DNA of 64,000 nucleotides from Trypanosoma brucei (Eukaryota), in the NCBI GenBank assembly GCA_000002445.1, contig CM000208.1:192001-256000 (forward strand). Direction: 5' to 3'. Shown here in pieces: positions 21,956 to 42,989 of the stretch. The notes beneath the pieces are model-generated. The model searched no databases. It saw only the letters and a program-made list of their open reading frames with translations, and had not been told where the DNA came from. The translations under genes and the position numbers were made by a program. How positions within the stretch are numbered: the first letter of the stretch is position 1; the number at the start of each line of letters is the position of its first letter.

Positions 21956-22353
21956 ATTTTTTGCTCAACCTCGAAAGAAATAGATTGAAAAGAAGAAATA
22001 CTGGTTGCAGTTCCTGTATTCCATTGGTTATTTTCATAATCTTGTTTGGGTACGTGTACAAATAAATAAAAAGTAAAGCCACTTAAAAACAAAAATATTG
22101 TTTTGTTGAGGTGGTTCACCCAAGTGTCAACACCTTTTAGGAAGAAGTAGCAAAAGAGGAAACAAATTAAAACAGCGAGAAGGGAAATCAAACAAGCCAA
22201 AGGAGAAATTAAAAGGCATTTATCAACTTGCGACTGCACATCTACTCGTGTTTATAAGAGTTGTAGTAGCAGGAACAAGAACAAGCAAAGAGGAAACCTA
22301 TTTATTTAATTTCATTTTTGTTACCTTCTTTCATTAAAAAAGAGTTTCAAGCC

Positions 22354-23136
22354 ATGGCGGACCTTTCCGATAATAAGTTTGCCTACCTCAAAGACAAAAA
22401 TATACCACAACTCATGGAGTATATTCTACAGAAACTCGTCACGGACCTTCCTGAAAATCCAATGCATTATATTGGGGAACTGATGGAAGAACCCGTTCCA
22501 CCGAGGATTATTGTCGCCGGCCCACCCGGCAGCGGCAAAGGGACGCAATGCGAAGCCATTGCAGAGAAGTTTGGTGTTGTACATATTTCTACTGGAGATT
22601 TAATTCGGGAAGAAGCAACAGCGGATACGGAGGAAGGCAGAGAGTTGGCGCAGTTGATGGAAGAAGGCGATTTAGTCCCTGACGAATTCATCTCTCAGTT
22701 GGTTTACCGCCGCCTTCAAAAAGACGACGCGAAGCGGTTTGGTTGGCTGCTTGATGGTTTCCCCCGCTCCAAACAACAGGCGATGGAATTGGATACATGG
22801 ATGTGCCCTCCACATCTCTTCATTTTGTTGGATGTAGCGGATGAAGAAGTTTTCAAACGCATTGAACACCGTCGTGCCGATCCCGTGACGGGGAATGTGT
22901 ATCATTTAATATTTAACCCACCCCCAAAGTCTGATAAAGAATTATGGAATCGCCTCGTGCAGCGGACAGATGACCATCGCGACACGGTGGCGAAACGGTT
23001 GGAAGTATATCGCGAGGAAATAAGTTGGTTGATGGGACACTACGGTGGTATAACCGAAGTTGTGGATGGGAATCAGGGCATCAGAGCCGTTACAGCGGAT
23101 GTACTGAAAACAGTGGAGAGCCGGCTGTTGCGTTGA
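22354..23136 (+). CDS. ADK: Adenylate kinase with an N-terminal ~45-aa extension (flagellar-type ADK of trypanosomatids)
   Basis: The P-loop IIVAGPPGSGKGTQCEAIAEKFG and the NMP-binding and LID regions (LLDGFPR, RxDD) are diagnostic of adenylate kinase. The extra N-terminal segment MADLSDNKFAYLKDKNIPQLMEYILQKLVTDLPENPMHYIGELMEE precedes the core. The long pyrimidine tract 21820-21955 lies upstream. Confidence 0.85.
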   Translation: MADLSDNKFAYLKDKNIPQLMEYILQKLVTDLPENPMHYIGELMEEPVPPRIIVAGPPGSGKGTQCEAIAEKFGVVHISTGDLIREEATADTEEGRELAQLMEEGDLVPDEFISQLVYRRLQKDDAKRFGWLLDGFPRSKQQAMELDTWMCPPHLFILLDVADEEVFKRIEHRRADPVTGNVYHLIFNPPPKSDKELWNRLVQRTDDHRDTVAKRLEVYREEISWLMGHYGGITEVVDGNQGIRAVTADVLKTVESRLLR

Positions 23137-25111: not shown

Positions 25112-25112
25112 G

Positions 25113-25148
<36 letters not shown>
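25112..25148. repeat. (GT)n microsatellite
   Basis: cgtgtgtgcgtgtgtgtgtgtgtgtgtgtgtgtgtgct. Further (GA)n runs lie at 12124-12150, 12585-12640 and 17920-17940. A (CCT)n run lies at 31860-31880. Confidence 0.9.
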
Positions 25149-25407: not shown

Positions 25408-28400
25408 ATGATTGGCACTCGGCGAAGTACTAAAAGCACCTCCTTTCAGCACCTGTACGGGTCACAAAACCGCACGCTGCGAGGTGCAAATGGTCAAAAG
25501 GGATTTTCCCATCAGCGGAATGGCACGGCTCGTGAGGAGCAGCAGTCAACCAAACCTCCAGGGCCACGTAACTCCGTTTTGATCAATCGTGTGGTTGATG
25601 TGTTGCCGCTGTTTAGCATCAACGGCACCGTTAGGTATATTGAGGCCGTAGGGGGACGTAGTGCGTGGACTGCAGAGGCGGATGGGTGCATTCGCGTGAG
25701 GAGTGTACCAAAGGGAACGGAAGTGCGAACACTGGAAGGAAGGGAAGGATGTTTCTGCACGTGCATATTATATGTAGAGTCAACGAATGCCATGTGGACA
25801 ACCTTCAGCGATGGCTTCATTCGCGTTTTCGACTTCAATACCCATGCGCTGCTCTCTGAGTTCATTAAACATGACAAAGCTATTGAATGTATATGGGAGG
25901 TGGAGGGATATGTATTTACGGGTGGTCGTGACTGGCAAATATATCAATGGAAGCCGGACACTTACGTCTGCGAACGACGACTCTCCGGTCACAATAATAC
26001 TGTTCGGTGCCTCTGCCAGTACGCTGGGGATACCGGAGCTGTCCTCTTCTCTGGAAGCGATGATGGCACTGTACGGGCGTGGGATCCATACCTTCCCGCG
26101 CGGAAAGGTAAGGACGGGGGCCCTATGATGCATATTTTTACTGGACACACACAGGGCGTGCTTTCTCTAGAACTTGTAACAGTCAGCAATCAGTTATGGT
26201 CTGGGGGCGAGGACACCACCATACGTGTTTACGACCTTCAAACGCTTGGGTGTGTTAGTGTGCTAAAGCACCACAGAGCACCCGTGAGTTCCATCAAGTT
26301 GATAGGAATTCGTGTGTGGAGTGCTGACAAGTATGGAAAGACGCTCTTGTGGGACCCCAAGACGTTAACACCACTGAAAGACCTCACCACTCATATGGCT
26401 ACCGACCCCGGTTCGATGCTCAGCATTTGTAAGGTGAAGCAACTGGTGTCATGGAAAGTATGGACTGCCTGTTCTGGGGGGAAGATTTATTGTTGGAATG
26501 CAGATTCTATTCCTATAGCGTTTGATGGTCCCACAGCCGGCAAGGACGCTGTTGATGTTAGCGATGCGGTGCAGCTGCTTACAGAAAATAAAGGCTTGCG
26601 AGGCGAAATAGAAAAGTTGAGGAGGCAGCTGATGGGTGAGGCCGAGGATGGGGGGTCTTCGGCAAACAGAGGGTCTGCGAGTGTGTCACCATCAAGAGCC
26701 AAAAGTGTTCCTTCTCATCCGCGGCACCATGAGTCCAAAATGGGACGAGGAACCTCCCCGTCGGCAACTCCACCGGGGAAAAGGCGGTCTCCCCCTGCGT
26801 TTTCTGCTGAATACGCCAACGATACTCCTATTCACGAGAGAGCAAACACGGCCTCCAGGGAGGGTGATGATGCACGAGGTTGCACGACATGTCATGAGAG
26901 ATTTTTCTATGGTGATGCATGGGAATTTATCTTCAGGCAAGACACGGAAGAGCTGTGCGCAGTGATCCGTCATGAAGTTGCTACTGTCCTCGGCATTCCG
27001 GCCGATCAGGTGCAAATCACCCAAATGGAACTTGGCAGTGCTGGCCAGGGGTGTGTTGTGAAGCTGAATATACAGCACAGTGCGAGTTTGCCTCCTTCAG
27101 AAATTGATACTATGCTAAGCAATTATCCATTTATTGATGTCTATGAGTTGTATGGTCGTTACCTCGCGAAGAAGTACGGGGACCCTAACGAAGTGCATGT
27201 TTCAGAGAGTGGAAGTGGGACGTTGGGTGGGCAGGTGCACCGGTCCCTGTGCGTTGACGACAGCAGAGGGGAGGAGGAGATGGCAAATGGTTACGACGAC
27301 CCTACGCCACTCCAAAATATGATCAACACGTTATTGAAGGAGAACGAAGAACTGCGGGGCCAGTTAATGCCAAAGGCGGAGACACCACCAGACGAAAACA
27401 ATGCTGAGGTTCGGACAGCGTTAACTAACTACGAAGAAGAGAGGATGAAGCCCCGGATTGCACAACTTGAGAAGGCTCTTGCCGAGAGAGATGAAACGCT
27501 TCACAGAAAGGATGAACGGATAAGGCAATTGGAGAGGGAACTTGAGGCAACCAAGTCCGATACCGGTATGAAGGAAGTCATGAAAGACCTGCGCAAAAGA
27601 GAGAAGAAACTGTTGACTGAAGTTGAAGCACTCACATCTCAGGTGGAGGCAATGGAAGAAGATAAGAGGAGAGCGGAAGACGATGCCAGCTTCTACCGAA
27701 GGGAAAATGAGTTGTTACGCAATCGTATCTCTGCAATGAATGAACAAATGGCAAAGGCATCAGGTTCTGAAGCAGAGGAAATGCAAAAGGTATTGACGAG
27801 TTATGAGGAAGAAAATGTAAAACCGAGGATAGCGCGACTTGAGGAGGTCATCGCAGAGAAGGATGAAAACCTTCAGTCACGGGACGAGAAGATAAAGAAG
27901 CTCGAAGATGAACTTGAGGCGGCAAAACAGGAAGCGAAATTTGCATCGGGGGAAAGTGTGAAGAGTAACGGCAAAGCAGGGAGTGAAACGGAAACATCGC
28001 TCTTAACGGAGGTGCAGGTGCTTAGAGACCAGGTGGAGGCAATGGAAGAAGATAAGAGGAGAGTGGAAGACGATGCCAGCTTCTACCGAAGGGAAAATGA
28101 GTTGTTACGCAATCGTATCTCTGCAATGAATGAACAAATGGCAAAGGCATCAGGTTCTGAAGCAGAGGAAATGCAAAAGGTATTGACGAGTTATGAGGAA
28201 GAAAATGTAAAACCGAGGATAGCGCGACTTGAGGAAGCGGTTTCTCAGAGGGACGAGGTTCTTCGTTCACAAGATGAACGGATAAAGGAGCTGACGAGAG
28301 AAATTGAAGAAAATCGGAGAGAAGACAAGAAGGGTTCCTACCACGTTACAGACGAGGCTGTTGTAGCGTCCAAGGAGGAAGTTCAGGCACTGAAGAATCA

Positions 28401-30567
28401 AATGAAAGCAATGAAAAAGGAAAAAGAAAAACTGGAAAATGAGTCTAAGCTCTATAGGAAGGAGAATGAGTCGCTGAAGGAACGGCTTTCTGAGACGAAT
28501 GATCAGCTGAAGAAGTCATCACCTCTTCACGAAGAGGAGAAACAAAAGGTGCTGTCAAGATACGAGGAAGAAAATATGAAAGCGAGAGTCGCGCGACTTG
28601 AGGAAGCCGTTACTCAGAGGGATGAGGCTCTTCGTGCAAAGAGCGAGCGGATACGCCAACTGGAGAAGGAACTGAGGGCAGCGCACCGAGAAGTGAAGGC
28701 TGCTCTCGAGGAGAGCAAGAAAAGCAGCAGTCGGCTTCACAGCGACTCCACGCAGACATCGGCAGAGGAACTGAGGTCTCTCATGACAAAAGCAAGGGAA
28801 AGAGAAAAAGAAAAATTAAAGAATGAGTCTAAGCTCTATAGGAAGGAGAATGAGTCGCTGAAGGAACGGCTTTCTGAGACGGATGATCAGCTGAAGAAGT
28901 CGTCGTCTCTCGACGAAGAGGAGAAACAAAAGGTGCTGTCAAGATACGAGGAAGAAGACGTGAAGCCGAGAGTGGCACGACTTGAGGAAGCCGTTACTCA
29001 GAGGGATGAGGCTCTTCGTGCAAAGGATGAGCGGATACGCCAACTGGAGAAGGAACTGAGGGCAGCGCACCGAGAAGCGAAGTCTGCTCTCGAGGATGGC
29101 AGGAGAAACAGCAGTCGGCTTCACAGCGACTCCACGCAGACATCGGCAGAGGAACTGAGGTCATTGAAAACAAAGATGGATGAAATGGAGAATGACAAAC
29201 GAAGGCTGAATGAAGAAATCGTCCTGTTAAGAAAGGAAAACGAGACACTAAAGCGAAATTTGGGTGACGTAATGAGGAGGTTAAAGAATCCATCAAGTTT
29301 CATTGCAAGCGAGAAACAGAAATTGCTGTCGAGCTACGAGGAAGAACACGTGAAACCGAGAATTACACGACTTGAGCATGCGGTTACTCTGAGGGACGAG
29401 AGACTTCAAGCAAAGGAGGATCGGATACGTCAACTGGAGAGGGAACTCGATGCCCTGCGGTATGGTGGTAAAAATGATGTGGATAACAATGCAGTGGAAG
29501 ATGGTAAGACCTTCCGCCAGCTGGAAGAGGCACTCTTAGTTGAAATTCAAGGAGTAAAGGATCAAATGAGGGCAATGGCAAAGAGCAATCAAAAAATGCA
29601 AGAAGAAGCTGTTTGTCTAATGAGGGAGAATCAGATGCTGAGAGATCGTCTTGCGGAGGCGTGTGAACAGCTCGGAAAGACACCATCTATCGAGGCGAGG
29701 GAGACTAGTCGAGAACTAGTGAAGTGTGAGGATGTAAGTCCTAACCCTAGAATAGCACAGCTTGAGCAAGCCGTAACTGAGAGGGATGAAATACTCCACA
29801 CAAAGGATGAACGGATAAGGCAACTGGAGAGGGAACTCGAGATGTTTCAGCACGAAAACAGGGCGATATGTGGCAACAGAGATTGTCGGGACGCAGGAAG
29901 GAAGTTGGCGGCTGAAAACCAAGAACTGAGGAATCTGGTGAAGTATATTGAGAATGACAAGCAGAAGCTGGAGCACGAGGCCAGTTTTTTCAAGCATGAA
30001 AACGATGCTCTGATCGGCCGTATCGCGGAGCTGGAAAGTACTCCAAGAGCGCCGTCCTTGTCACCAACTAAGACTCATACCCTTTCGGGTGATAGGGAGG
30101 CTCTTATGTCGCGGCTGGGCACTGCAATCGAGCAGGTTCACAATGTTCAGAAAGAAAGAGAGGCTGCAGAACGCAAGATTGCTGTATTGCAGGAGGATTG
30201 TAGGGACCTCCGTATGAGGCTTCAGCACGCTTCTGATACTCCTGTACGTAATGAAGCGTTGTTTCCGTCTTCCACTAACTGTGACGGCACATACCAAACA
30301 GGTCTTCACAGTGGAGAGGATGCTCATTTAATTGAAAGTGCGAGGGGAGCGCCTCACAGTAGTAGTGACGCCATTGTTGAGTTATTGCCCGACAGATTAA
30401 CCGCATTGGAGGATACGATGGCGTCTTTAAATACAGGACTTCATGACGCTATACGTCGTTTGAGCTCCGTAAGCGACAACAGCGCGCTGCTACGCACACA
30501 AATTGCGGATATGCTCTCGCAGCGTTCGTCTCACAATCTGATTACTGATCCTCATGAGAGGTCGTAG
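25408..30567 (+). CDS. WD40-repeat N-terminal domain plus giant repetitive coiled-coil protein (1719 aa)
   Basis: N-terminal WD repeats (GHNNTVRCLCQY...FSGSDDGTVRAWD, FTGHTQGVLSLE...WSGGEDTTIRVYD). A charged heptad coiled coil follows, built from a recurring module about 130 aa long (YEEENVKPRIARLEEAV.QRDE.L..KDERI.QLE.EL) present roughly 9 times, including near-identical recent copies. Confidence 0.75.
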   Translation: MIGTRRSTKSTSFQHLYGSQNRTLRGANGQKGFSHQRNGTAREEQQSTKPPGPRNSVLINRVVDVLPLFSINGTVRYIEAVGGRSAWTAEADGCIRVRSVPKGTEVRTLEGREGCFCTCILYVESTNAMWTTFSDGFIRVFDFNTHALLSEFIKHDKAIECIWEVEGYVFTGGRDWQIYQWKPDTYVCERRLSGHNNTVRCLCQYAGDTGAVLFSGSDDGTVRAWDPYLPARKGKDGGPMMHIFTGHTQGVLSLELVTVSNQLWSGGEDTTIRVYDLQTLGCVSVLKHHRAPVSSIKLIGIRVWSADKYGKTLLWDPKTLTPLKDLTTHMATDPGSMLSICKVKQLVSWKVWTACSGGKIYCWNADSIPIAFDGPTAGKDAVDVSDAVQLLTENKGLRGEIEKLRRQLMGEAEDGGSSANRGSASVSPSRAKSVPSHPRHHESKMGRGTSPSATPPGKRRSPPAFSAEYANDTPIHERANTASREGDDARGCTTCHERFFYGDAWEFIFRQDTEELCAVIRHEVATVLGIPADQVQITQMELGSAGQGCVVKLNIQHSASLPPSEIDTMLSNYPFIDVYELYGRYLAKKYGDPNEVHVSESGSGTLGGQVHRSLCVDDSRGEEEMANGYDDPTPLQNMINTLLKENEELRGQLMPKAETPPDENNAEVRTALTNYEEERMKPRIAQLEKALAERDETLHRKDERIRQLERELEATKSDTGMKEVMKDLRKREKKLLTEVEALTSQVEAMEEDKRRAEDDASFYRRENELLRNRISAMNEQMAKASGSEAEEMQKVLTSYEEENVKPRIARLEEVIAEKDENLQSRDEKIKKLEDELEAAKQEAKFASGESVKSNGKAGSETETSLLTEVQVLRDQVEAMEEDKRRVEDDASFYRRENELLRNRISAMNEQMAKASGSEAEEMQKVLTSYEEENVKPRIARLEEAVSQRDEVLRSQDERIKELTREIEENRREDKKGSYHVTDEAVVASKEEVQALKNQMKAMKKEKEKLENESKLYRKENESLKERLSETNDQLKKSSPLHEEEKQKVLSRYEEENMKARVARLEEAVTQRDEALRAKSERIRQLEKELRAAHREVKAALEESKKSSSRLHSDSTQTSAEELRSLMTKAREREKEKLKNESKLYRKENESLKERLSETDDQLKKSSSLDEEEKQKVLSRYEEEDVKPRVARLEEAVTQRDEALRAKDERIRQLEKELRAAHREAKSALEDGRRNSSRLHSDSTQTSAEELRSLKTKMDEMENDKRRLNEEIVLLRKENETLKRNLGDVMRRLKNPSSFIASEKQKLLSSYEEEHVKPRITRLEHAVTLRDERLQAKEDRIRQLERELDALRYGGKNDVDNNAVEDGKTFRQLEEALLVEIQGVKDQMRAMAKSNQKMQEEAVCLMRENQMLRDRLAEACEQLGKTPSIEARETSRELVKCEDVSPNPRIAQLEQAVTERDEILHTKDERIRQLERELEMFQHENRAICGNRDCRDAGRKLAAENQELRNLVKYIENDKQKLEHEASFFKHENDALIGRIAELESTPRAPSLSPTKTHTLSGDREALMSRLGTAIEQVHNVQKEREAAERKIAVLQEDCRDLRMRLQHASDTPVRNEALFPSSTNCDGTYQTGLHSGEDAHLIESARGAPHSSSDAIVELLPDRLTALEDTMASLNTGLHDAIRRLSSVSDNSALLRTQIADMLSQRSSHNLITDPHERS
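27641..28240 (+). repeat. Two near-identical ~210-nt copies (27641-27850 and 28031-28240) within the WD40 coiled-coil gene
   Basis: Both copies encode QVEAMEEDKRR(A/V)EDDASFYRRENELLRNRISAMNEQMAKASGSEAEEMQKVLTSYEEENVKPRIARLEE. Confidence 0.85.
28420..29170 (+). repeat. Two ~370-nt near-identical tandem copies (28420-28790 and 28805-29170) within the same gene
   Basis: Both copies encode NESKLYRKENESLKERLSET(N/D)DQLKKSS...RLHSDSTQTSAEELRSL. Confidence 0.85.
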
Positions 30568-32263
30568 AGTTATGTAACTGTATCATTTTATGTACAAAAG
30601 GAAGAAAATAAACAAATAAATGAAAAGGTGGGCGATTGTAAACGACTTAAATGCTGTCTGCCCGTTTGTCGGACAACTAACTCCGCAACGCAGCACCTGA
30701 AGTACTGTATGTGCTTAAGCTTATGAACTCCTCATATGAGGTGATATGTGGTGAGTTTAACCCTTGGTACAATGTAGACAATTATTATTTATGGACATTG
30801 TCGATGTAATATTGTGGGGGCGCTCCCTTTTTGTATGGAGGTTGCTTTGTATCTATTGCTTTACTGGCGCCACCCGAGTTTGTTGTTGTTGTTGTTTTCA
30901 CTCTTCTTGCTATCACTACACCCACACGTGTACGTCAAGTTCTTGGGATGTTCAATCACTCATTTTTTTTTAAAAGCAATGAGACATCATATGTGAAGAA
31001 ATATTATTCCTTTACTTTTAGGTATCTCCTTGTGTACGATGCCTCGCTGGCTCACATACCTTTTTGTTTACGCCCGCCTTTATCTTCCGTTTTGTGTTTA
31101 AATAGTGCTCTTTTTGCTTCATGTTAGTTTGATTGATCCTGTTGGATAAGTTAACGGCGGCGTTTTACTTTTCATGGGGAAAGTAGACGTGCCACCGACC
31201 GGTTTTTCTTTTTTTTTTTCACACAGTACTCACGTCGAAACATTTTTTTTTTTGAGTGTGAATGCTGTGTGAAAAGTTTCCACTTCCCTCCTTTTTTTTT
31301 TGTGTGTGTGTGTGCGTTTGTGTGTAGTTCTGGGTATATCAGGGGATGGAGTAGGTTTTCCATTTGTGGTCACGAAGAGAGGGGAGAGAGAGAGAGAGAG
31401 GAAACAAAAAAAAATGGAACTGTTCAATAGGCTGCGCAAGTGGGCAAATATCTGTAGTAGTGGAAGTCGTCGCAGGCTGACGTGGGGCAACGAGTGTTTT
31501 TTTTTTTTTTTGAAGAGAAGAAATAGAGGAACAGAAGCCCCGTGTTTAAGTGGTTGTACGACGTTTTGTGCGTGCCAAAAAAAAAAATTGTGAACAAAAA
31601 AAAGGGAGTAACCCCTTTCGTTTGCCTCCTTTGTTTTTTTTTTCGTGGCCTCGAGAGGATTTTGCTTCTTTCCTCTCTTTGCATCTGATTGAAATGACTG
31701 TAGTCGGAGTGATTGTACCGCTAACGCACAGACAATAACCCTGTTTTTATTTGGAGGGAAGCAAACGTTTTCACTATCACCTTCTTTTGTACTTCTAACT
31801 GCGTATGTATGTATGTACATGTGTCTGTTTGTTTTAATGTATACTAACTACTCCCCTTCCTCCTCCTCCTCCTCCTTCTCTGTTGCGTAACCAAGTGGAC
31901 GGTAAACATTGCAGAAGGTATGTGCCCAAGTGGCTTGTAATCGCTGTATTTGCTCTGTTTTACCGTCAACAATACATCCCCCATTTTTTTTTTAAAAAAA
32001 TGCCACATTAGTGTTGTACTTCCTTCACTGATTTGTTCTACCTTACTTTTTTTTTTGCGTTTTTTTTTTAAAAAACCAAGTGCTGTACGGTGTAGTCGCG
32101 CAGTTTATTATACTCTTCTCCGGGTAAGACCCGGGGCGCATCCAAGTCAATCAGTAGGAACAATTGGTTTCTGCCTAGGAGTAAGGGTCGAACAAGGACG
32201 CGTACCGGCATACGTATCGTCCAGGTTCGTTGGTTACATCTCTTACATTTTGTGTAGTAAACG

Positions 32264-35200
32264 ATGGCCATGCGGCGGTCATCACCTTCGCCACGACCCC
32301 GCGTGAGGTCGGCGTCTGTGGCTTCCATTCCGGATACGCAACGATGTGAAGGAATTCTTTCATCCCGTTCCATTGCAGGTACGGCGCGCTCCATAGAATA
32401 TGTGGGCGACCGATGTGTATGGGCTGCAGCAGTTGATGGTCGCGTCTTAGTTTATTCGCTCTCCGATGGTGAAGTAGTTGCAGAGGCGGCCGTACGTGAA
32501 AATACCTTTTGTACAGTACTACGCCTCGTGTCAAGAAGACGCATTTGGGCTGGGTTCGCGGACGGTTTTATTTGTTGCTACGACAGTTCGACGGCGAATT
32601 TGTTGAATGAGTTTGTTCAGCATGATGGCGCAGTGAACTGCCTGGCCACAACCCCTTATAGTGAGTTTGTTTATAGTGGCGGGGAAGATTGGAAAGTGTA
32701 CCAATGGTTGAAGGAAAGTTGCACGTACGTACGGCTCTTCTCTGGTCATTCTAATGCTGTGCGATGTGTTGTTGCGCATATAGTGGAGAGTGCGTCAACC
32801 CGTTCTGTATCGGAAGGGGTGCGCTCCCTTGGTGATGACATGTACAATAACGAGGAGGACGAAGGGGGAGAGGGGTGTAATGCTCGGGTTAATGAATCAA
32901 TGGAGGAGTACATCATTTCGGGAAGCGACGACATGACCATTAAAATATGGGACCCCCGGGCACCCTTGCAGATTGAACTAAACCTAGCTTGTCTCACTAC
33001 GCTTCGTGGTCACAATGGTGGTGTCCACTCCATGGAGGTTTTCCGTCGGAAGCAGGAGCTTTGGTCCGGTGACGGTGAAGGTGCTCTGCGTGTGTGGGAC
33101 CTCCATGATGTTAGGAAGCCTTCTTGCGTTGCCGTACTGGAGGGCCAACATAGCGCATCCATCTCATCCATAGTGCGTATTGATTCCTGCATGTGGAGCA
33201 GTGGCAAGGACAGCTTCGTTGTTTTATGGGACGCGTACGAAAAGGTAGCCTTACGTCGTTTTGTTCCCGGCGGACGTGCGGCTTCTAGGCCTATCTTCGT
33301 GATGCGACGGCTTTACCGGGCAGCTCATTGGGTTATATGGCTTGGAGGGCTCGATAGGAACATTCATTCTCTCAGTTTTGCAGCGGACGGTGATATAGAT
33401 GGAAAGTTGCTTCGTTCAGAGAAGCGGTGTGCGGCTAACAAACTGCGTTACATGCGCCTACAGGAAAGAACTATGGAACTATGCACTCTCGTAGAGGAAT
33501 TGGAAGAGAAAAACAAGGCATTGGAGACTCAGGTGCAGCAGCTCAACGCACTATTACATAGATCGTTGGAGGCAAGTCAGCCCTTAGACCACGGAAGTGG
33601 CAGAAGCAGATCAGCAGGTAAGGGAGGAGTTACATTTCGCCGCCTAAAAAGTGACGCAGAAGGTGACAAGGCACCATCAAGGCTTGCCGTGGACACAACG
33701 TTGAAGCTACCGAGTGGGATTGCCTCACGGTGCTCGACAGCAGATCCGTCACCGGAAAAATCCTTTAAGAAAGATGTACGGGCGTGGGAAAAGCAGGAAA
33801 AACAGACCATAACGGGTGATATTTCGGACGGGCAAAAACTTATCGATCAGATGGAACTCATCACGTCGGCTGAGTTTACATTGCAGGACGTCAGTGGTGT
33901 TGATGGCACAAGTCGCCTTGCCTTCGAGGCGTACAAGAAAGAGGTAGAACTGAAGTTGGCTGAGGAAGAATTGTCGCGACAAGCGCTGCAGCGTGAGCTG
34001 GCGGAGGCGACAAAGTACAAGACGATGTGGGAAACGAAAAACGACGCGTTACGGGACGCCTACGAACAAATTGAAAACCTACAGCGAAATCTCGAAGGCG
34101 AGCAACGGTACGTCAACGATCTACTGCAAGAGATGGCTCAGTTATCCAACAAGAAAGTGCGTGGGGAGGGTGAGGAAGATTTACCGTGTGCAGATAATCG
34201 CACTCCTACAGAACCTAGAGACCCTAGCACTGGTTACTCACTATACAAGAGCATCCCAGGCAACTACTGGGACAACATCTGCACGAACTATCCGGACGTT
34301 CTTAGGGATACCCTTTTTTCCGAACTCAGTGAATTAGTTAGTAGTTTGGGGGCAGTCGTAACAAATATCGCTTATGCTTCAACGGGAGAATGTCTTTTGG
34401 TCGAGGCGGTTGTAGGACCTACCACAGTTGGGCGAGAGAAAATGCAGAGCTGTCTGGAGCTACATGCATTTCCTCAGACACGTACCCTTCACGAGAGTAT
34501 GTCCACCCCATTTCGTAAGGACGCTTCGGTAAAAAAATCGGAGAAGGATAATGGATGGAAGCTGTTGGTGGAAGCGAAGGAGAGGGCAGAAATGGAGCGT
34601 GATGAGGCCTTGGCAGTGCTTCAGGAGGCTACTGATGAGTTGGAAGCCATGTATGAATATCAGCGTCAAGTTGAGGAGCGCCGTGCGAAAACCCCTGGTT
34701 TATGCGACATCACCGCGTTACGAGACCAGAAAAATAGCAGTGTAACTTCCTCAACTTCTCAGGCGTGTACTAAAGTTCCCATATATGTGGCCACAGCAGA
34801 AGAATATGAAGAGGTTCTTGCAGTTATGGGTAAGTTAGAGAGGGAGCGAGATGAGGTACTTCAGCTGCTTCAAAAGAGTCAGGCCAACTCAGTTTCGACA
34901 ACGAATAAGGCTACATCAACCAGCTTCATTGATTCACAACACCGGCAGCACAGGGAAGACACTGCCGCCTCCCAAACCGTGAGTGTCAACGAATACTCCA
35001 GGGTCGTCGCCGAGAAGGAGGGAGCGGAGGCTGAATGTCGGGAAGCTCGGAGGAAACTTCAGAAGGCCCTTCACGAGTTGGAATCTCTTCAAAAGCTTCA
35101 TCTTCAAGCTGAGGAACAGCGTTCTAGAACGCGAGGGTTGGCGGGGTCCACTAGGTTACACGGTCGAAAGAGTACCAACGAATCTTTATTGGAATCACGA

Positions 35201-36772
35201 GAGGGTACTAAAGTTCCCATATATGTGGCTACAGCAGAAGAATATGAAGAGGTTCTTGCAGTTATGGGTAAGTTAGAGAGGGAGCGAGATGAGGTACTTC
35301 AGCTGCTTCAAAAGAGTCAGGCCAACTCAGTTTCGACAACGAATAAGGCTACATCAACCAGTTTCATTGATTCACAACACCGGCAGCACAGGGAAGACAC
35401 TGCCGCCTCCCAAACCGTGAGTGTCAACGAATACTCCAGGGTCGTCGCCGAGAAGGAGGGAGCGGAGGCTGAATGTCGGGAAGCTCGGAGGAAACTTCAG
35501 AAGGCCCTTCACGAGTTGGAATCTCTTCAAAAGCTTCATCTTCAAGCTGAGGAAGAGTGGCGTAAAAAATTGAACTCGTCTGGGTATTCAGAGAGCTCAT
35601 GGAGAGGTGGGAAGAAGCCCCTCTTGTCCTTCTATCCTGATGGTGACCCAACACTGCGTGGGTTGGGCAGTGGAGAGCATGTGAAAACCGATGATACGGA
35701 CGCACTGTTGTCGGGTGAGGAGGTTGCAGACCACAGGTTGCGGGGGGGGAGGCGAAATCCCAGTAAAGGTTCCACCACATTCGGAAGCAGCGACCGCACT
35801 GCAAGTGCAGATCAACGCCGCAGCAGGCTGTTGCCCACGGCATCGGATATCGACATCGCTACAGGGCACGTCACTCCTGGTTTAGGGAGTTATTTTCACA
35901 ATCTCGCTGCGAAGGAAGAATATGCTAGTGCTGCCACACAGAATCTGACGCGTCCTGTTGATGTCGGCGCACTAGATTTGAAAACAAGCAAGTTTTCACG
36001 TTACCGATGCATGCTTGGAGAAATGTGGGGTCCGCTGGTAAAACGGTATAGAGCGTTGGTGGAAGACGTCTTTCTCATGGAGGTTTTCCGCGCTACGTCA
36101 ATACCACCTAACTACGTTAAGGGTTTGGAGTTTGGCCGTGGTGGATTGTTCGTAGAGGTTGACATCTATGACGTTCACTCCTGCGAAAATGTTAACCTTT
36201 GCCTGCAGCGCCACAAGTTTAGTGTGTTGGATAAGTTGATTCGTCTCAGTCAAAGCTGCAGTGCAACTGCACATGACCCACATCAATTAGGTGAAGAAAC
36301 GTCGGCCTCACAGCGGGGTCCTGGCTGCGTTGCAGAGAGGAACCTAGGTTTAAATGGCGAAAGTCGCAAATTTTTTCAGCAAACGTCACATTGCATTGAC
36401 GAAGCACAGGCGAAGGAACTTGACGCATTCCGCTGCCGGCGGGCTTTCGCCAACAGTTTACGTCGAGGAGAGGAAACGTTGCGTTCGTTACTTATATCGC
36501 AATCGGAAATCGACCCGAAGGTACCCGTGGATTCGTTAGCATTGCAGCGGGAACCAATTTACTGTGTGACCCTTGACGAGTATCGCTGTGTTTTGAGGCA
36601 ACTTGGTGCTGCAAGTCGACGTGTCACTCAACGCCAACGCGACATCAGCGGTGATGAGCAAACGCGGCTGTGGAACGAACATGTGGTGAAGCAAGCAGAG
36701 AAGGAGCGCCGGTTCGCGCGGAGATTGAGCCATCCCTATCCGCAGTTTGCAAAGGGTAGTCACACTGAATGA
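32264..36772 (+). CDS. WD40-repeat N-terminal domain plus coiled-coil protein (1502 aa), paralog of the preceding gene
   Basis: The N-terminal WD domain has the same order of motifs as the 25408 gene (YSGGEDWKVYQW vs FTGGRDWQIYQW; SGSDDMTIKIWDP vs SGSDDGTVRAWDP). It is followed by a coiled coil with an internal near-perfect ~345-nt duplication. Confidence 0.7.
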   Translation: MAMRRSSPSPRPRVRSASVASIPDTQRCEGILSSRSIAGTARSIEYVGDRCVWAAAVDGRVLVYSLSDGEVVAEAAVRENTFCTVLRLVSRRRIWAGFADGFICCYDSSTANLLNEFVQHDGAVNCLATTPYSEFVYSGGEDWKVYQWLKESCTYVRLFSGHSNAVRCVVAHIVESASTRSVSEGVRSLGDDMYNNEEDEGGEGCNARVNESMEEYIISGSDDMTIKIWDPRAPLQIELNLACLTTLRGHNGGVHSMEVFRRKQELWSGDGEGALRVWDLHDVRKPSCVAVLEGQHSASISSIVRIDSCMWSSGKDSFVVLWDAYEKVALRRFVPGGRAASRPIFVMRRLYRAAHWVIWLGGLDRNIHSLSFAADGDIDGKLLRSEKRCAANKLRYMRLQERTMELCTLVEELEEKNKALETQVQQLNALLHRSLEASQPLDHGSGRSRSAGKGGVTFRRLKSDAEGDKAPSRLAVDTTLKLPSGIASRCSTADPSPEKSFKKDVRAWEKQEKQTITGDISDGQKLIDQMELITSAEFTLQDVSGVDGTSRLAFEAYKKEVELKLAEEELSRQALQRELAEATKYKTMWETKNDALRDAYEQIENLQRNLEGEQRYVNDLLQEMAQLSNKKVRGEGEEDLPCADNRTPTEPRDPSTGYSLYKSIPGNYWDNICTNYPDVLRDTLFSELSELVSSLGAVVTNIAYASTGECLLVEAVVGPTTVGREKMQSCLELHAFPQTRTLHESMSTPFRKDASVKKSEKDNGWKLLVEAKERAEMERDEALAVLQEATDELEAMYEYQRQVEERRAKTPGLCDITALRDQKNSSVTSSTSQACTKVPIYVATAEEYEEVLAVMGKLERERDEVLQLLQKSQANSVSTTNKATSTSFIDSQHRQHREDTAASQTVSVNEYSRVVAEKEGAEAECREARRKLQKALHELESLQKLHLQAEEQRSRTRGLAGSTRLHGRKSTNESLLESREGTKVPIYVATAEEYEEVLAVMGKLERERDEVLQLLQKSQANSVSTTNKATSTSFIDSQHRQHREDTAASQTVSVNEYSRVVAEKEGAEAECREARRKLQKALHELESLQKLHLQAEEEWRKKLNSSGYSESSWRGGKKPLLSFYPDGDPTLRGLGSGEHVKTDDTDALLSGEEVADHRLRGGRRNPSKGSTTFGSSDRTASADQRRSRLLPTASDIDIATGHVTPGLGSYFHNLAAKEEYASAATQNLTRPVDVGALDLKTSKFSRYRCMLGEMWGPLVKRYRALVEDVFLMEVFRATSIPPNYVKGLEFGRGGLFVEVDIYDVHSCENVNLCLQRHKFSVLDKLIRLSQSCSATAHDPHQLGEETSASQRGPGCVAERNLGLNGESRKFFQQTSHCIDEAQAKELDAFRCRRAFANSLRRGEETLRSLLISQSEIDPKVPVDSLALQREPIYCVTLDEYRCVLRQLGAASRRVTQRQRDISGDEQTRLWNEHVVKQAEKERRFARRLSHPYPQFAKGSHTE
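34770..35552 (+). repeat. Near-perfect ~345-nt duplication (34770-35115 and 35207-35552) within the second WD40 coiled-coil gene
   Basis: GTKVPIYVATAEEYEEVLAVMGKLERERDEVLQLLQKSQANSVSTTNKATSTSFIDSQHRQHREDTAASQTVSVNEYSRVVAEKEGAEAECREARRKLQKALHELESLQKLHLQAEE is repeated. Confidence 0.9.
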
Positions 36773-37007: not shown

Positions 37008-37047
<40 letters not shown>

Positions 37048-37802: not shown

Positions 37803-40800
37803 ATGAGCGAGCCCAGGGAAGTGGGCTACCGGCACATTTTAAGATCGGCATCGGCCACCAGCAAAGTGAACGCCAAGAACCGGAGCCCAACCGTAACAAA
37901 GAGTCCCAGCACACCTACCGACAGCCGTGGCGTTAGCGCGGCACGTATGCGTTCCTTCTCAGGATCTAGTGTCGCGAGAGCAAACCCTCGGATCCCACAA
38001 AAAGATGACAGTTCGCGGGAGGAGGTGAGGGCTCTTCGCCTGCTGCTCCGCGAGAGGGAAGAGCAGGTGGAACTACTTCATGCGCTCTTGAGTGAAAAAC
38101 AGTTGTTATTAAATCATAACAAAGCGGCCGAGGAGCGCCTCCGGCAATGTGATGAGCAACTTGGGACTCTTGCGGCCGTGCTCGGACTTGAAATGGAGTC
38201 GCAGGAAAAGGACAATTTGCCCCATACCACGAGGCAGGCGAAAGGGAGTGAACTGGGCACTGTGAAAAAAATGCCGAGCGTTCGTTGCATCTTAGACCGT
38301 GTTCAACAGCTAGTGTACGACAAAACGCACCTGGAAAGCGAACTTGATGTGAAACTCCAGGAACTGGAGTGGGCTCAGACAGAGTTAGAAATGCTGCGTG
38401 GAGGCACCCTTTCACAAAAAGTGTCACTGAAGAACGACGCGGGAAAGTGTGGTTCTTTGGCACAAGAGTTGGAATCACAACTTCGTGTTAACGCTGAACT
38501 TGAAAGAACGCTGGCCGATCTGAAGGAAAAATATATTATGTCGGAGAGGATACTGGAGACTTTGGAGAAGGACCACCATCAGGTAAGTCAGGTGCTACAC
38601 GGAAAGGAAAAGGAAGTTCTGGAATTACAACGTAAGGAACGAAGCGTCGCTGCGGAGTCTAGTAAAAGGCGTGAGTACGAAATCTACCACATGCAGTGGA
38701 AAGAACCGAATAATCTCATCACAACGCATCACCGCTGTCATTTTCGTGGAGATAGCTGGGTAGGCTTGTTACGGGAGAAACCACAGGCAATGCAGGCTGC
38801 TCTTTTGAAGGATATCTCGCTGGAACTCCGTGCCCCGTACGGCTTCATAACCATTGCAACCATGGAATCGGTGTCGGAGCTCGTTGTTTTCGATGTTATC
38901 ATTCGTCATCCCGTTTCACTATCTGAAGATGATGTGGAGTTACGGCTTATTGGATGCTCCTTCGATGAGATGTCACTTCTTCTGAAACAAGCGGAGAATC
39001 CGAAGGAAGGTCATGACCTTGTCCTCCACCAGTTGAAGCTCCTGCAAGGGACTATTGTAAGGAAAGAAGAAGAGATAGCCGCGCTGACAAAGCAATTACG
39101 AACAACTAAATTGTCCCTCGAGGAGAGACAACGGCAGTACGATGAAGAGAGTAAGCTGGTTCATATGGCGCTAGACGAAACGGAGGAGACTGTTAAGGTA
39201 ACGTACAGCGAACTGAAGATGCGTGAGTTGAGGGAAGAAGAGCTGAAACTGCAACTTCAGCAGTGCTCAGAAACAATTTTATCGCGGGACCAACGAATTA
39301 TGGAACTTACAGCGCAGCTGCGTGAGCTTAATAGTACTGTGGCAGAGGAAAGTGAAGAAAATGCAAGGATACGCGATGCTACATGCTCCAACGGCCCCGG
39401 AGACAAACACGATGGAAGATCCGCAGAGGGGAGGAAAAAATGTGTTGAAAATGAAAGCGATGGCCTCTGCGATACTCTAGTGAAGATACCTTCCGTAAAA
39501 ATGCACGTTGTCGAGGCGTCATGGAAAGGATTGGATCCCCTGGCATCGACTGAGGCAGTTATGACGCTTGACTCAAGGGCCCAAAGCATTGTGCGCACTA
39601 TTCTTATCGGTGAGATGGCGACTGTTGCTCACGTCCTTCCCTTGAAAGTTCTTTCACTTCAGTGCACTTGTTGCTCGTTGCGCGCGGAGGTACAAGTACA
39701 CATCAGTTCTCAAGTTGAAGACGCAGACCGTTCAACCGAGGGTCTTGATAAATTCCGCCCAAGAACTACCATCGCTTTCCTGGAGGAGTGGTTCAACATG
39801 CGGGAGCTCATTGAAAGTCGGGGACGGAGGGTGCAATCACTCGCAGATGAGCTCACCAGTTTAAACTTGTCAGTTGCCGCATTTAAAGAAAGCGGTAAGA
39901 AAAATGAAGAGGTAGAAAAGGCAGCTACGACTGGAACCCCTTCATGTGCGGGAGAAACCTCGCAGGGTGATGAAGAGAAAAGGGAAGAAAAAAGGCTGTG
40001 TGAATCACTCGACCAACAACTACGACTGGAGCGTACCCAAGTTCGCACACTACAAGCGGAGAAGCGAGCGAAGGAACTTGCGCTACAACGGGCAAACGAT
40101 AAGTTAAACGAAGTTACTGCTGCATTTGAGGCGTTGCAGTCAAATTTCGCTGGGAGAGATCACCGCCCCACTCGTGACGAAGATGCAAATGCCTGTCGTC
40201 TCGCAGACGTTCAGGCAAAAAGGCGCCACGGGAGGAACCAAAAGGACAACAATATGAAGGGCGTGTGTGACGCAGAGTTGGCGGGAGGAAATGAGTCGTT
40301 GAGGGCAGAAAGGGGGGACGTTTGGTCTGCTCTCGCTGACGCTTATGAGGAGTACGATACCTTATACGAAAGGTACGAAAATGCAATGAAGCAACTTCAG
40401 GACCTGGAGAGCTCGCTCCGGGAAAAACTGTTACTGACGAAGCGGTCTCACGTGTACGAGAAACAAGTCGAGGAGTTGACCCAACAGAAGGAAGCACTCA
40501 TAGCAGAGCAGGAGAAGCAACGCGAGAAGGAGGCTCTATTGCGGGAAACTGTTACTTCACATCAGCGCGATATTGACCGACTACAGAAGGAACTTGATCG
40601 TAAGACAGAGTGGGCAGAGGAGGTTATGCGTCGTCTTGTAGAAGAGGAGGATGAATGCTCCAGATTGGAAGGAGCTGTCAGATCCCTTAAGCAACACTCC
40701 ACGGCGGAGGTAGCGACAAAGGAAAAGGTCGTATCGAATGATTTGAAAACTAAAGACATCCAGCGGGTGCTTTACACCTTTTGTACCACTACCTTGGGAA

Positions 40801-41858: not shown

Positions 41859-42989
41859 CCTAATTGGGTATACCCGAGAGCAAACGTGTAGGCTCGTCAA
41901 ACATTAGCGACGGTTCTGTCACCGAGCTAACCGTCGATACACCACCTGTACACCACGTATATGCTTGCGTGTCCTATTACAACAAATAACTTAAATGCCA
42001 AAAAAAAAAAAAGTATTTAAGGTGCCACACACTCTGCGATTGTACCTTCTCCAGCAGTGTGCCGAGCCTACCTTTAGCACTGTACCTTCTTGATTTGTTG
42101 TTACTTTTGACTACTGTGTTGATGAATAAGCTGAGGCACGCTCAAAGTGTAAAATAATAGTTTCATCTGAAGGGTCACCTTTTTACTGTACATTCTTTCT
42201 TTCCTTTTTTTTAAAAAAAGAAGGGGTTCACAACGTTCAGCGCACACCTGTTCATAACGCCCACGAATGAATAACTTCCCCGAATGGGAATAGTAAAAGA
42301 GAGAAGAAGATATGGCATGACACTACGGAAAACAGCACCACGTTTTTTTTTTGCTTTTCGCTTTGTATTGCTTTCGTGTGTAACTTATGGGTCATTTGTC
42401 TACACCTTTGTTTACCTCTCAACTGTATAAATATAACATAAATATGCGATTGCCTGTATTTATTTGTTCATGTACACTTCACGGAAGAGTTCTTTGTGCT
42501 TTGTAGCTAACTGAGAAGCTCATCCTTTCTCTTGTACCTTAAACTTACTCCCTATAAATGTTGGTCAATTTCTGCCGTTTTGTACTGTGATGGCTGCTTG
42601 CACGTGGATTTTTTTTTTGTGTTTCCACTTTGTGTACGTGACCGGCGTTACGAAAGCATTGTGTATCCTTGCTGTTGGGCGGTATTTTGCCTCTCACTTT
42701 GTACCAATGAAGGGCTATCCACTTGCCTGTAAAAGTTTTTTCTTGTTCTTATTACGGTGAGTCAACATGTCTGTACCTTGACAACTCTGTCCCCTTCGCT
42801 GCGATCTAGCTCCTTTTTTTTTAATTTTGTGACATTATTAAGTGCAATACATTTAGACTGTGATACGACAAACATAAACGCATCACTGTAGTCACAAGTA
42901 ACCGTTACGGCGCACGTCTTTGAGTAATTGATCCGCACGACAGAAGGCGGCACATACCGACAGGAATCACCAACATCTCAACATTGCAA

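What the first reader, a model, noticed from the sequence alone, without database searches (positions are those of the whole stretch)
25408..36772. Adjacent paralogous pair of WD40 plus giant coiled-coil proteins
Two neighbouring genes (25408-30567 and 32264-36772) share the same architecture. Each has a ~400-aa N-terminal WD40 propeller with matching motif order, followed by more than 1000 aa of charged coiled coil. This points to a tandem gene duplication followed by divergence of the coiled-coil arms. WD40 propeller plus long coiled coil is the architecture of cytoskeletal, flagellar and basal-body scaffold proteins. A tandem paralog pair suggests a heteromeric filament or sub-functionalisation.
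Basis: seen in the sequence. Interest (0 to 1): 0.55.

Follow-up and report, generated by a model that had tools for sequence, protein, structure and literature searches.

The report
FAZ6 and its hook-complex paralogue
The two neighbouring genes are real, ancient tandem duplicates, but both are already-known Trypanosoma brucei cytoskeleton proteins (FAZ6 and the hook-complex protein Tb927.10.850) that sit at different places along the flagellum attachment apparatus, so the finding is correct but largely ordinary.

Summary
The window is T. brucei TREU927 chromosome 10. Gene A (25408-30567) is FAZ6/Tb927.10.840. Gene B (32264-36772) is the hook-complex protein Tb927.10.850. Their N-terminal WD40 propellers align colinearly at 31% identity (E 7e-48, 176 bits). 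The best of 160 generic WD40 proteins from an exhaustive search of 1.84 billion proteins gives at most 101 bits. So does the next gene, FRW1/Tb927.10.870. The order ADK, FAZ6, second WD40 gene, FRW1, TK is conserved in T. cruzi, Porcisia, a Lotmaria-like contig and Angomonas, so the duplication predates the trypanosomatid radiation. Outside Trypanosoma the second copy is a short, propeller-only protein of 473-615 aa. The claim of more than 1000 aa of coiled coil roughly fits A (about 870 aa, seven 128-aa repeats) but not B (about 460 aa in nine patches). The tails show no detectable homology. Published localisations (distal FAZ versus hook complex) support sub-functionalisation and argue against a heteromeric filament. 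The genes are already known; the new details are modest.

The parts
25408..30567 (+). Gene A = FAZ6 / Tb927.10.840, 1719 aa, 195.48 kDa
   Evidence: The ORF is. It matches XP_822342.1 exactly. The computed mass of 195.48 kDa equals the published value for Tb927.10.840. The published domain content 'WD domain/PFAMB506' matches.
25591..26514 (+). FAZ6 seven-bladed WD40 propeller (about aa 62-369)
   Evidence: The AlphaFold model has 28 strands and pLDDT above 90. Pfam WD40 scores 48.9 bits against a cut-off of 27. Foldseek hits in the PDB are generic WD40 propellers at about 20% identity.
26869..27168 (+). FAZ6 FAZ1_cons domain (aa 488-587), beta-alpha-beta-beta-alpha-alpha fold
   Evidence: Pfam PF23398 scores 80 bits against a cut-off of 27.5. 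The local HMM also finds it. It is modelled at pLDDT above 90.
27295..30075 (+). FAZ6 coiled-coil repeat array, about 7 copies of a 125-130 aa unit (aa 630-1556)
   Evidence: Fragment self-BLAST maps the copies. TRF reports a 384-nt period, two copies, 91% matches, at 28405-29162. The heptad heuristic marks it as coiled-coil-like.
32264..36772 (+). Gene B = Tb927.10.850, hook-complex protein, 1502 aa, 168.3 kDa
   Evidence: The ORF is. It matches XP_822343.1 exactly. The computed 168 kDa equals the published value. Its position follows from primer-confirmed neighbours .870 and .890 and from TK as .880.
32342..33406 (+). Gene B WD40 propeller (aa 27-381), paralogous to FAZ6's
   Evidence: BLASTP gives 31% identity and E 7e-48. 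Pfam WD40 scores 55.4 bits.
32792..32905 (+). Acidic low-complexity insertion in a blade-4 loop (aa 177-214), specific to Trypanosoma .850 orthologues
   Evidence: The alignment slice shows it in all six Trypanosoma B orthologues and in none of the other groups shown.
34235..34504 (+). Gene B FAZ1_cons domain #1 (aa 658-747), divergent
   Evidence: The local HMM scores it 38 bits, i-Evalue 2.6e-12. Pfam reports two stretches in B. It is conserved in all six Trypanosoma orthologues.
34400..35557 (+). Gene B 146-aa repeats, about 2.6 copies (aa 713-1098), last two 99% identical
   Evidence: Fragment self-BLAST.
35981..36256 (+). Gene B FAZ1_cons domain #2 (aa 1240-1331)
   Evidence: Pfam PF23398 scores 51.2 bits against a cut-off of 27.5. 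The AlphaFold model has pLDDT 89 and the same topology as A's domain.
37803..41858 (+). Gene C = FRW1 / Tb927.10.870, 1351 aa, coiled coil plus FAZ1_cons (aa 302-399), no propeller; third member of the local FAZ1_cons cluster
   Evidence: Published FRW1 RNAi primers match at 41186 and 41688, which are gene nucleotides 3384 and 3886. The computed mass of 151.85 kDa equals the published value. Pfam PF23398 scores 67.3 bits.
22318..23136 (+). Adenylate kinase, upstream synteny anchor
   Evidence: Pfam ADK. It is conserved upstream of the FAZ6 orthologue in Porcisia, Angomonas, the Lotmaria-like contig and the environmental contigs.
42984..44357 (+). Thymidine kinase, downstream synteny anchor
   Evidence: Pfam TK. 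It is conserved downstream of the FRW1 orthologue.

Best explanation
The two genes are FAZ6 (Tb927.10.840) and the hook-complex protein Tb927.10.850 of Trypanosoma brucei. They descend from one tandem duplication that predates the split of Trypanosoma from Leishmaniinae and Strigomonadinae. The duplicated gene encoded a kinetoplastid-specific cytoskeletal scaffold with this layout: a 7-bladed WD40 propeller, a short helix, a linker, a FAZ1_cons alpha/beta domain, and a long repetitive tail. The copies then specialised in space along one cytoskeletal axis. Tb927.10.850 sits at the hook complex around the flagellar-pocket neck, and FAZ6 sits on the distal FAZ filament and anterior tip. In each lineage the tails expanded independently through private repeats. 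What is shown here is the paralogy, the shared two-domain core, the folds, and the conserved synteny. The localisations, detergent resistance, and proximity to TbMORN1 and TbPLK come from published work. The following mechanism is inferred. The coiled-coil tail dimerises and sets length or spacing. FAZ1_cons, which is shared with FAZ1, FAZ4, FAZ8, FAZ10, FRW1, FLAM8 and others, docks the protein onto the insoluble FAZ/microtubule-quartet-associated lattice. The divergent propeller binds site-specific partners and so decides which station each paralogue occupies.
For: Identity: the proteins match the TREU927 chromosome 10 proteins exactly. Masses of 195.48, 168 and 151.85 kDa equal the published values for .840.850 and .870. 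Published primers for .870 and .890 match at the expected positions. Paralogy: 31% identity over the whole propeller, E 7e-48. Cross-family single-HSP scores are 98-204 bits (medians 163-167), against at most 101 bits (versus A) and 81 bits (versus B) for generic WD40 proteins. Every full-length single-propeller match in the exhaustive search that could be named or placed by synteny is from a kinetoplastid. FAZ1_cons is above the Pfam cut-off in A, B and C, with the same beta-alpha-beta-beta-alpha-alpha fold in A and in B's domain #2. Age: the order ADK, FAZ6, second WD40 gene, FRW1, TK is found in Porcisia, T. cruzi, Angomonas and a Lotmaria-like contig. The short Porcisia copy is no closer to Porcisia FAZ6 (150 bits) than to T. 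brucei FAZ6 (157 bits), while the two FAZ6 orthologues score 340 bits. Whole-gene rather than propeller-only duplication: B's FAZ1_cons domains resemble FAZ6's more than FRW1's (hhalign 63.6 versus 35.0 and 53.1 versus 42.8). Sub-functionalisation: FAZ6-eYFP is at the distal FAZ and anterior tip and resists detergent. L. mexicana FAZ6 forms a ring at the flagellum exit point. Tb927.10.850 is listed as a hook-complex/bilobe component. Both were TbPLK BioID hits.
Against: The roles assigned to each domain are inference. The literature says the function of FAZ1_cons 'remains unknown'. The deep propeller phylogeny is unresolved, with bootstraps of 1-35%, so linking the short non-Trypanosoma proteins to Tb927.10.850 rests on gene position only. 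By sequence they are slightly closer to FAZ6 than to .850. Whether the tail was lost outside Trypanosoma or gained within it is one evolutionary step either way, and only the weak FAZ1_cons comparison favours loss. Some kinetoplastid contigs carry a pure coiled-coil gene, or nothing, at B's position, and their placement is unresolved. The primary paper on .850 localisation could not be read. B's propeller was not modelled directly.
Confidence: 0.8

Rival explanations
1. Heteromeric filament: the two paralogues co-assemble through their coiled-coil arms into one mixed filament.
For: Both proteins are detergent-insoluble cytoskeletal components and both were TbPLK BioID hits. The hook-complex shank lies next to the start of the FAZ filament and the microtubule quartet, so physical contact at one end is conceivable.
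Against: The published localisations differ: distal FAZ and anterior tip versus hook complex. The tails show no significant similarity and have different repeat units. B's tail is only about 30% coiled-coil-like. In Porcisia, the Lotmaria-like contig and Angomonas the B copy has no long tail, while FAZ6 keeps its own. FAZ6 was recovered by FAZ4 immunoprecipitation, and .850 is not mentioned among the proteins that study reports.
Confidence: 0.06
2. Partial duplication plus later fusion: only the 5' propeller-coding part of FAZ6 was duplicated, which is the short form still seen outside Trypanosoma. The Trypanosoma lineage then acquired the long tail with its FAZ1_cons domains secondarily, for example from an FRW1-like neighbour.
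For: Three non-Trypanosoma lineages have a propeller-only second gene of 473-615 aa with no FAZ1_cons. Gain in Trypanosoma and loss elsewhere are equally parsimonious. An FRW1-type donor lies immediately downstream.
Against: B's FAZ1_cons #1 sits in the same relative position as FAZ6's and is closer to FAZ6's domain than to FRW1's. All six sequences score higher on a depth-matched FAZ6 HMM, and hhalign gives 63.6 versus 35.0. Domain #2 also leans towards FAZ6 (53.1 versus 42.8). Both A and B have a helix or coiled coil directly after the propeller.
Confidence: 0.12
3. No specific relationship: two unrelated WD40 proteins that happen to be neighbours, with the similarity reflecting only the generic WD40 repeat consensus.
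For: WD40 repeats give many spurious-looking cross-hits. 68,907 proteins match A's propeller at E of 0.001 or better, and multi-propeller proteins reach high summed scores.
Against: As single HSPs, generic WD40 proteins reach at most 101 bits over 255 aa, against 176 bits over 362 columns for A versus B. The pair also shares a second, rare, kinetoplastid-specific domain. Their adjacency is conserved in five trypanosomatid lineages (and the window).
Confidence: 0.02

Closest known systems
FAZ6 (Tb927.10.840) and Tb927.10.850 'hook complex protein, conserved', as already described in T. brucei
   Same: They are the very genes in the finding: identical sequence, mass and domain content.
   Different: No paper in the searchable library discusses the two together. 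The 2015 list of nine PFAMB506 proteins names .840 and .870 but not .850. A review lists .850 as present in 'Tb, Tc' only, whereas short positional orthologues exist in Porcisia, a Lotmaria-like contig and Angomonas.
Other FAZ1_cons (PF23398, formerly PFAMB506) cytoskeletal proteins: FAZ1, FAZ4, FAZ8, FAZ10, FRW1, FLAM8, GB4, PFC20
   Same: [quoted passage not shown]
   Different: In the published FAZ-protein domain table only FAZ6 combines FAZ1_cons with a WD domain.850, shown here, is the second such protein. FRW1 next door has no propeller. The sequences of the other family members could not be fetched, so the relationships among the domains remain untested.
Substrate-receptor WD40 propellers beta-TrCP / FBXW11 and Fbw7 (best natural Foldseek matches in the PDB)
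   Same: Seven- or eight-bladed WD40 propeller fold, TM-score 0.5-0.7 on the target, about 20% identity.
   Different: Pfam finds no F-box in A or B. The sequence identity is at the generic WD40 level. There is no evidence of phosphodegron binding. This is a fold resemblance only.
SEA-type and other ferredoxin-like alpha+beta sandwich domains (SorCS2 membrane-proximal domain, IA-2 ectodomain, mucin-type SEA, RRM)
Coronins (named from my own knowledge, not tested here)
   Same: An N-terminal 7-bladed WD40 propeller followed by a coiled coil that oligomerises a cytoskeleton-binding protein.
   Different: The coronin coiled coil is short and coronin binds actin. It has no FAZ1_cons domain. No coronin appeared among the listed matches in any search here.

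Membership tests
WD40 repeat beta-propeller | Pfam PF00400 WD40 repeats above the gathering threshold | tested here: met
   A scores 48.9 bits and B 55.4 bits, against a cut-off of 27.
WD40 repeat beta-propeller | Closed propeller of four-stranded blades (usually seven) | tested here: met
   The model of A has 28 strands, meaning 7 blades, with pLDDT above 90, and it matches solved WD40 propellers. For B this is inferred from the colinear alignment spanning all of A's blades; B was not modelled.
FAZ1_cons (PF23398) domain family | Score above the Pfam gathering cut-off of 27.5 bits | tested here: met
   A scores 80.0 bits, B 51.2 bits (two stretches) and FRW1 67.3 bits. The local HMM places B's copies at residues 658-747 and 1240-1331.
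FAZ1_cons (PF23398) domain family | A common compact fold across members | tested here: met
   The topology is beta-alpha-beta-beta-alpha-alpha in A (pLDDT above 90) and in B's domain #2 (pLDDT 89). B's domain #1 was not modelled.
Flagellum attachment zone (FAZ) proteins | Localisation to the FAZ and stable association with the detergent-extracted cytoskeleton | not testable with these tools
   This is published for FAZ6 (eYFP tagging) and for L. mexicana FAZ6. Tb927.10.850 is not in the TrypTag-derived FAZ protein list in which .840 and .870 appear.
Hook complex (bilobe) components | Proximity to or co-localisation with TbMORN1 at the flagellar-pocket neck | not testable with these tools
   This is published for Tb927.10.850 (review table; 'BILOBE' in the TbPLK BioID table). 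The primary paper is not held. The T. cruzi orthologue is annotated 'hook complex protein, conserved'.
FAZ6 orthogroup (is gene B simply a second FAZ6?) | Groups with FAZ6 orthologues and shares their propeller, one FAZ1_cons, coiled-coil layout | tested here: not met
   B's orthologues form their own clade (98% bootstrap), separate from Trypanosoma FAZ6 (94%). They carry a private blade-4 insertion and two FAZ1_cons domains. B is 48-53% identical to its own orthologues and 25-35% identical to FAZ6-family members.
F-box/WD40 substrate receptors (beta-TrCP, Fbw7) | An F-box N-terminal to the propeller | tested here: not met
   No F-box family appears among the Pfam hits for A or B at E up to 0.1.

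The most novel reading that the evidence does not exclude
FAZ6, Tb927.10.850 and FRW1 are three products of serial tandem duplication and domain loss from one ancestral propeller-FAZ1_cons-coiled-coil gene lying between adenylate kinase and thymidine kinase. In this reading the locus is still occupied by a single giant WD40 gene in some kinetoplastid lineages. The three paralogues now mark three successive stations on one microtubule-quartet/FAZ axis: the hook complex, the distal FAZ, and the new-FAZ tip and cleavage furrow. The propeller would act as the address label and FAZ1_cons as the common anchor. The trimming of the .850 tail outside Trypanosoma would track the reduced attachment apparatus of those cells.
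Probability: 0.3. Interest if true: 0.4.

Novelty: already known. Interest (0 to 1): 0.25.

Why it matters
The practical value is modest. The analysis links two proteins that have been studied separately, one by groups working on the FAZ and one by groups working on the hook complex, as ancient tandem paralogues sharing a propeller plus FAZ1_cons core. It adds Tb927.10.850 to the FAZ1_cons family with two copies of the domain. It corrects the view that .850 is absent from Leishmania-like organisms, since a short propeller-only orthologue sits in the same gene slot. It also offers a natural experiment for asking which domain targets a protein to which station of the flagellum attachment apparatus: two paralogues with a similar core and different addresses, plus lineages in which the tail is missing. 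The function of FAZ1_cons is still described as unknown, and the confident beta-alpha-beta-beta-alpha-alpha models give a starting point for testing it. None of this would surprise a trypanosome cell biologist.

Tried and rejected
1. Whole-protein self-BLAST for internal repeats returned nothing, because off-diagonal HSPs are culled inside the self-match. Fragment queries replaced it.

2. The word-indexed homologue search with B's N-terminus returned a single hit. The same search with a FAZ1_cons alignment returned none. Short divergent domains cannot reach significance against 5.8 billion sequences, so other FAZ1_cons proteins (FAZ1, FAZ4 and so on) could not be fetched, and the monophyly of the A, B and FRW1 domains is untested.

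3. A Biopython bootstrap run timed out. It was redone with numpy distances. The deep nodes stayed unresolved (bootstraps of 1-35%).

4. The first grouping of 'generic' WD40 scores was contaminated by FAZ6 cluster members. It was corrected.

5. The afdb50 fold library was unavailable, so structural relatives of FAZ1_cons outside the PDB were not surveyed.

6. The primary paper on Tb927.10.850 localisation (Morriswood et al. 2013) is not held. The review and the TbPLK BioID table were used instead.

7. I tried to decide whether a single copy at the ADK-TK locus is ancestral by placing the environmental contigs L003, L004, L008 and L010 with ADK, TK and PIF1 identities. The result was inconclusive.

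8. The coiled-coil-only middle gene of L007 and L008 shows no detectable similarity to Tb927.10.850, so it cannot be called an orthologue.

9. I considered a beta-TrCP/Fbw7-like phosphodegron reader, given the Foldseek top hits and the proximity to TbPLK. I rejected it as a membership claim because there is no F-box and identity is only generic.

Full report
**What is there.** The two ORFs exist exactly as described, both on the + strand: 25408-30567 (1719 aa, 'A') and 32264-36772 (1502 aa, 'B'). Every ORF of 200 aa or more that is likely to be real lies on the + strand, as expected for a kinetoplastid polycistronic unit. Exact-sequence look-up shows that the window is Trypanosoma brucei brucei TREU927 chromosome 10. 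A is XP_822342.1/Q38CF6 and B is XP_822343.1/Q38CF5, both deposited as 'hypothetical protein, conserved'.

**Identity.** A's computed mass is 195.48 kDa. That equals the published figure for Tb927.10.840, which is FAZ6, described as 'WD domain/PFAMB506'. B's computed mass is 168.3 kDa. That equals the 168 kDa listed for Tb927.10.850, '5 x WD40, 7 x CC', a hook-complex (formerly bilobe) component found by TbMORN1 BioID. The gene numbering is anchored by sequence in three ways:
- The next gene (ATG at 37803, 151.85 kDa) is FRW1/Tb927.10.870. The published FRW1 RNAi primers match at 41186 and 41688, which are gene nucleotides 3384 and 3886 as stated in the paper.
- 42984-44357 is thymidine kinase.
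- The 2889-aa kinesin at 45444-54113 is Tb927.10.890, FCP4/TbKin15. The published knockout targeting primers abut the ORF at 45422-45443 and 54114-54134.

**Is the pair really paralogous?** Yes.
- BLASTP aligns A61-379 with B27-381 colinearly at 31% identity, 176 bits, E 7e-48.
- An exhaustive phmmer search of 1.84 billion representative proteins with A's propeller gave 68,907 hits. The high-scoring non-family hits are multi-propeller proteins whose scores are summed over 5-17 stretches.
- Scored as single HSPs, the 160 generic WD40 proteins retrieved reach at most 101 bits against A and 81 bits against B (medians 69 and 58). FAZ6-family versus .850-family comparisons give 98-204 bits, with medians of 163-167.
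- Every full-length single-propeller match that could be named or placed by synteny is from a kinetoplastid.
- An AlphaFold model of A residues 40-600 gives a confident 7-bladed propeller (28 strands, pLDDT above 90). Its best PDB matches are ordinary WD40 propellers (beta-TrCP, Fbw7, COPB2, Tup1) at about 20% identity.

B's blade count is inferred from the alignment, not modelled.

**The tails.** A's tail is a nearly continuous coiled-coil-like block. My crude heptad heuristic marks about 870 residues between 683 and 1712. It is built from about seven copies of a 125-130 aa unit. B's tail is different. It has about 460 coiled-coil-like residues in nine patches, two globular FAZ1_cons domains, Ser/Thr/Pro/Gly-rich linkers, and 2.6 copies of a 146-aa unit, the last two 99% identical. 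The tails show no significant similarity to each other. So 'more than 1000 aa of charged coiled coil' is roughly right for A and wrong for B. 'Divergence of the arms' cannot be demonstrated, because independent repeat expansion fits equally well.

**Age and synteny.** The order ADK, FAZ6, second WD40 gene, FAZ1_cons gene (FRW1), TK is conserved in four other lineages:
- Porcisia hertigi
- T. cruzi, with a few genes inserted between the pair
- Angomonas deanei, where almost the whole window's gene order recurs
- a Lotmaria-like contig

Outside Trypanosoma the second gene is short (473-615 aa), propeller-only and without FAZ1_cons. The short proteins form their own clade with 94% bootstrap. The Angomonas and Porcisia copies are clear orthologues of each other (341 bits). 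The Porcisia short copy is no closer to Porcisia FAZ6 (150 bits) than to T. brucei FAZ6 (157 bits), whereas the two FAZ6 orthologues score 340 bits against each other. It is therefore an old lineage, not a recent copy. The Trypanosoma .850 orthologues form a 98% clade and share a private acidic insertion in a blade-4 loop. The deep nodes are unresolved, so equating the short proteins with .850 rests on position only. That still amends the 'Tb, Tc only' entry in the review table.

**Was the tail lost or gained?** Profile comparisons put both of B's FAZ1_cons domains closer to FAZ6's domain than to FRW1's (hhalign 63.6 versus 35.0 and 53.1 versus 42.8). All six #1 sequences score higher on a depth-matched FAZ6 HMM. 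This mildly favours a whole-gene duplication followed by tail loss outside Trypanosoma. The alternative, a propeller-only duplication followed by tail capture in Trypanosoma, remains open. The FAZ6 and FRW1 domains are the most similar pair (86.4), which is compatible with FRW1 belonging to the same local family. This could not be tested against the other FAZ1_cons proteins.

**Other locus states.** Unnamed kinetoplastid contigs show two further arrangements. In one, a single giant WD40 gene (2277 or 3054 aa, with no FAZ1_cons detected) lies between ADK and TK (L003 and L010). In the other, a FAZ6-like gene is followed by a pure coiled-coil gene of 766-885 aa and then an FRW1-like gene (L007 and L008). 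Housekeeping-gene identities do not place these lineages clearly inside or outside the trypanosomatids, so they do not yet polarise the history.

**How it most likely works.** Published work shows the following:
- FAZ6-eYFP is on the distal FAZ filament with a strong anterior-tip signal. It resists detergent and was found by FAZ4 immunoprecipitation.
- Tb927.10.850 is a hook-complex component.
[quoted passage not shown] It is needed for cytokinesis initiation in bloodstream forms.
- Both .840 and .850 were TbPLK-proximal in BioID.

I infer that the paralogues are structural scaffolds that have divided one cytoskeletal axis between them. In this model the tail provides dimerisation and length, FAZ1_cons provides a common anchor to the insoluble lattice, and the diverged propeller provides site-specific partner binding. 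Sub-functionalisation is therefore supported. A mixed FAZ6/.850 filament is unlikely, given the different locations, the non-homologous tails, and the absence of the tail in other lineages.

**Verdict.** However, the genes are already named and localised, and the architecture belongs to a known kinetoplastid family. The new elements are incremental:
- the explicit FAZ6/.850 paralogy
- two FAZ1_cons domains in .850
- short orthologues of .850 outside Trypanosoma
- a conserved cluster of four flagellum-axis genes
- a confident fold for FAZ1_cons

Novelty: already known. Interest: about 0.25.

Noticed in passing
window 37803-41858: The gene immediately downstream of the pair is FRW1/Tb927.10.870, a cleavage-furrow protein. 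It also carries a FAZ1_cons domain (aa 302-399) but has no propeller. Its domain is the closest match to FAZ6's domain (hhalign 86.4), so the 'pair' may be part of a three-gene local family.
   Followed up: yes
window 45444-54113: The 2889-aa kinesin is Tb927.10.890, FCP4/TbKin15, a flagella-connector protein; published targeting primers abut the ORF. Four flagellum- or FAZ-associated cytoskeletal genes therefore lie within 29 kb, interrupted only by thymidine kinase. Kinesin adjacency also recurs in Angomonas (L005) and in contig L004.
   Followed up: partly
window 27295-30075 and 34400-35557; proteins P0077, P0181, P0004: Public T. brucei variants differ by exactly one repeat unit. FAZ6 is 1591 versus 1719 aa (a difference of 128 aa) and Tb927.10.850 is 1356 versus 1502 aa (a difference of 146 aa). 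The T. b. gambiense .850 is a 1417-aa 'fragment'. These could be real copy-number alleles or assembly collapse.
   Followed up: partly
window 32792-32905: An acidic low-complexity insertion of about 38 aa lies in a blade-4 loop of the .850 propeller. It is present in all six Trypanosoma orthologues and absent from the FAZ6 family, the short non-Trypanosoma proteins and the prokinetoplastid homologues.
   Followed up: partly
L001 10001-11422; L005 15363-17201; L006 10001-11848: Porcisia, Angomonas and a Lotmaria-like organism have a short (473-615 aa) propeller-only gene in the Tb927.10.850 slot. A published table lists .850 as present in T. brucei and T. cruzi only.
   Followed up: yes
L003 4716-13880; L010 1215-8048: Two environmental kinetoplastid contigs have a single giant WD40 gene (3054 and 2277 aa, with no FAZ1_cons detected) filling the whole interval between adenylate kinase and thymidine kinase. 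This may be the ancestral single-copy state, but the lineage could not be placed.
   Followed up: partly
L007 6894-9551; L008 6285-8585: In another unnamed lineage the middle slot is occupied by a pure acidic coiled-coil protein of 766-885 aa. It has no propeller, no FAZ1_cons and no detectable similarity to Tb927.10.850.
   Followed up: partly
protein P0081 (3560 aa, EukProt, organism not named): This protein has a FAZ6-like propeller and two FAZ1_cons domains (722-839 and 2507-2603), an architecture resembling Tb927.10.850 on a FAZ6-like sequence.
   Followed up: no
proteins P0109, P0148, P0173/P0235, P0102: The prokinetoplastids Papus and Apiculatamorpha encode giant proteins (up to 3947 aa) with the same propeller type but no detectable FAZ1_cons. 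The propeller family is therefore older than the trypanosomatids.
   Followed up: no
L002 4789-9609: In T. cruzi the pair is separated by inserted genes (LSM, a GP63-type peptidase M8, and two small ORFs). The FRW1 gene call there appears truncated, because FAZ1_cons starts at residue 1 and a 313-aa ORF lies just upstream.
   Followed up: no
window 42984-44357: T. brucei thymidine kinase is a 457-aa protein with two TK stretches, whereas the syntenic TK genes in the other kinetoplastid loci are 212-276 aa.
   Followed up: no
window 25112-25148 and 37011-37044: There are perfect or near-perfect dinucleotide microsatellites, (GT)18 upstream of FAZ6 and (AT)17 between .850 and FRW1.
   Followed up: no
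window 45444-54113 (protein residues about 588-1086): The kinesin gives high whole-protein Pfam scores to Ribosomal_L19e, CheY-binding and PEPCK_N with no individually significant stretch. These are almost certainly artefacts of an internal repeat array.
   Followed up: no
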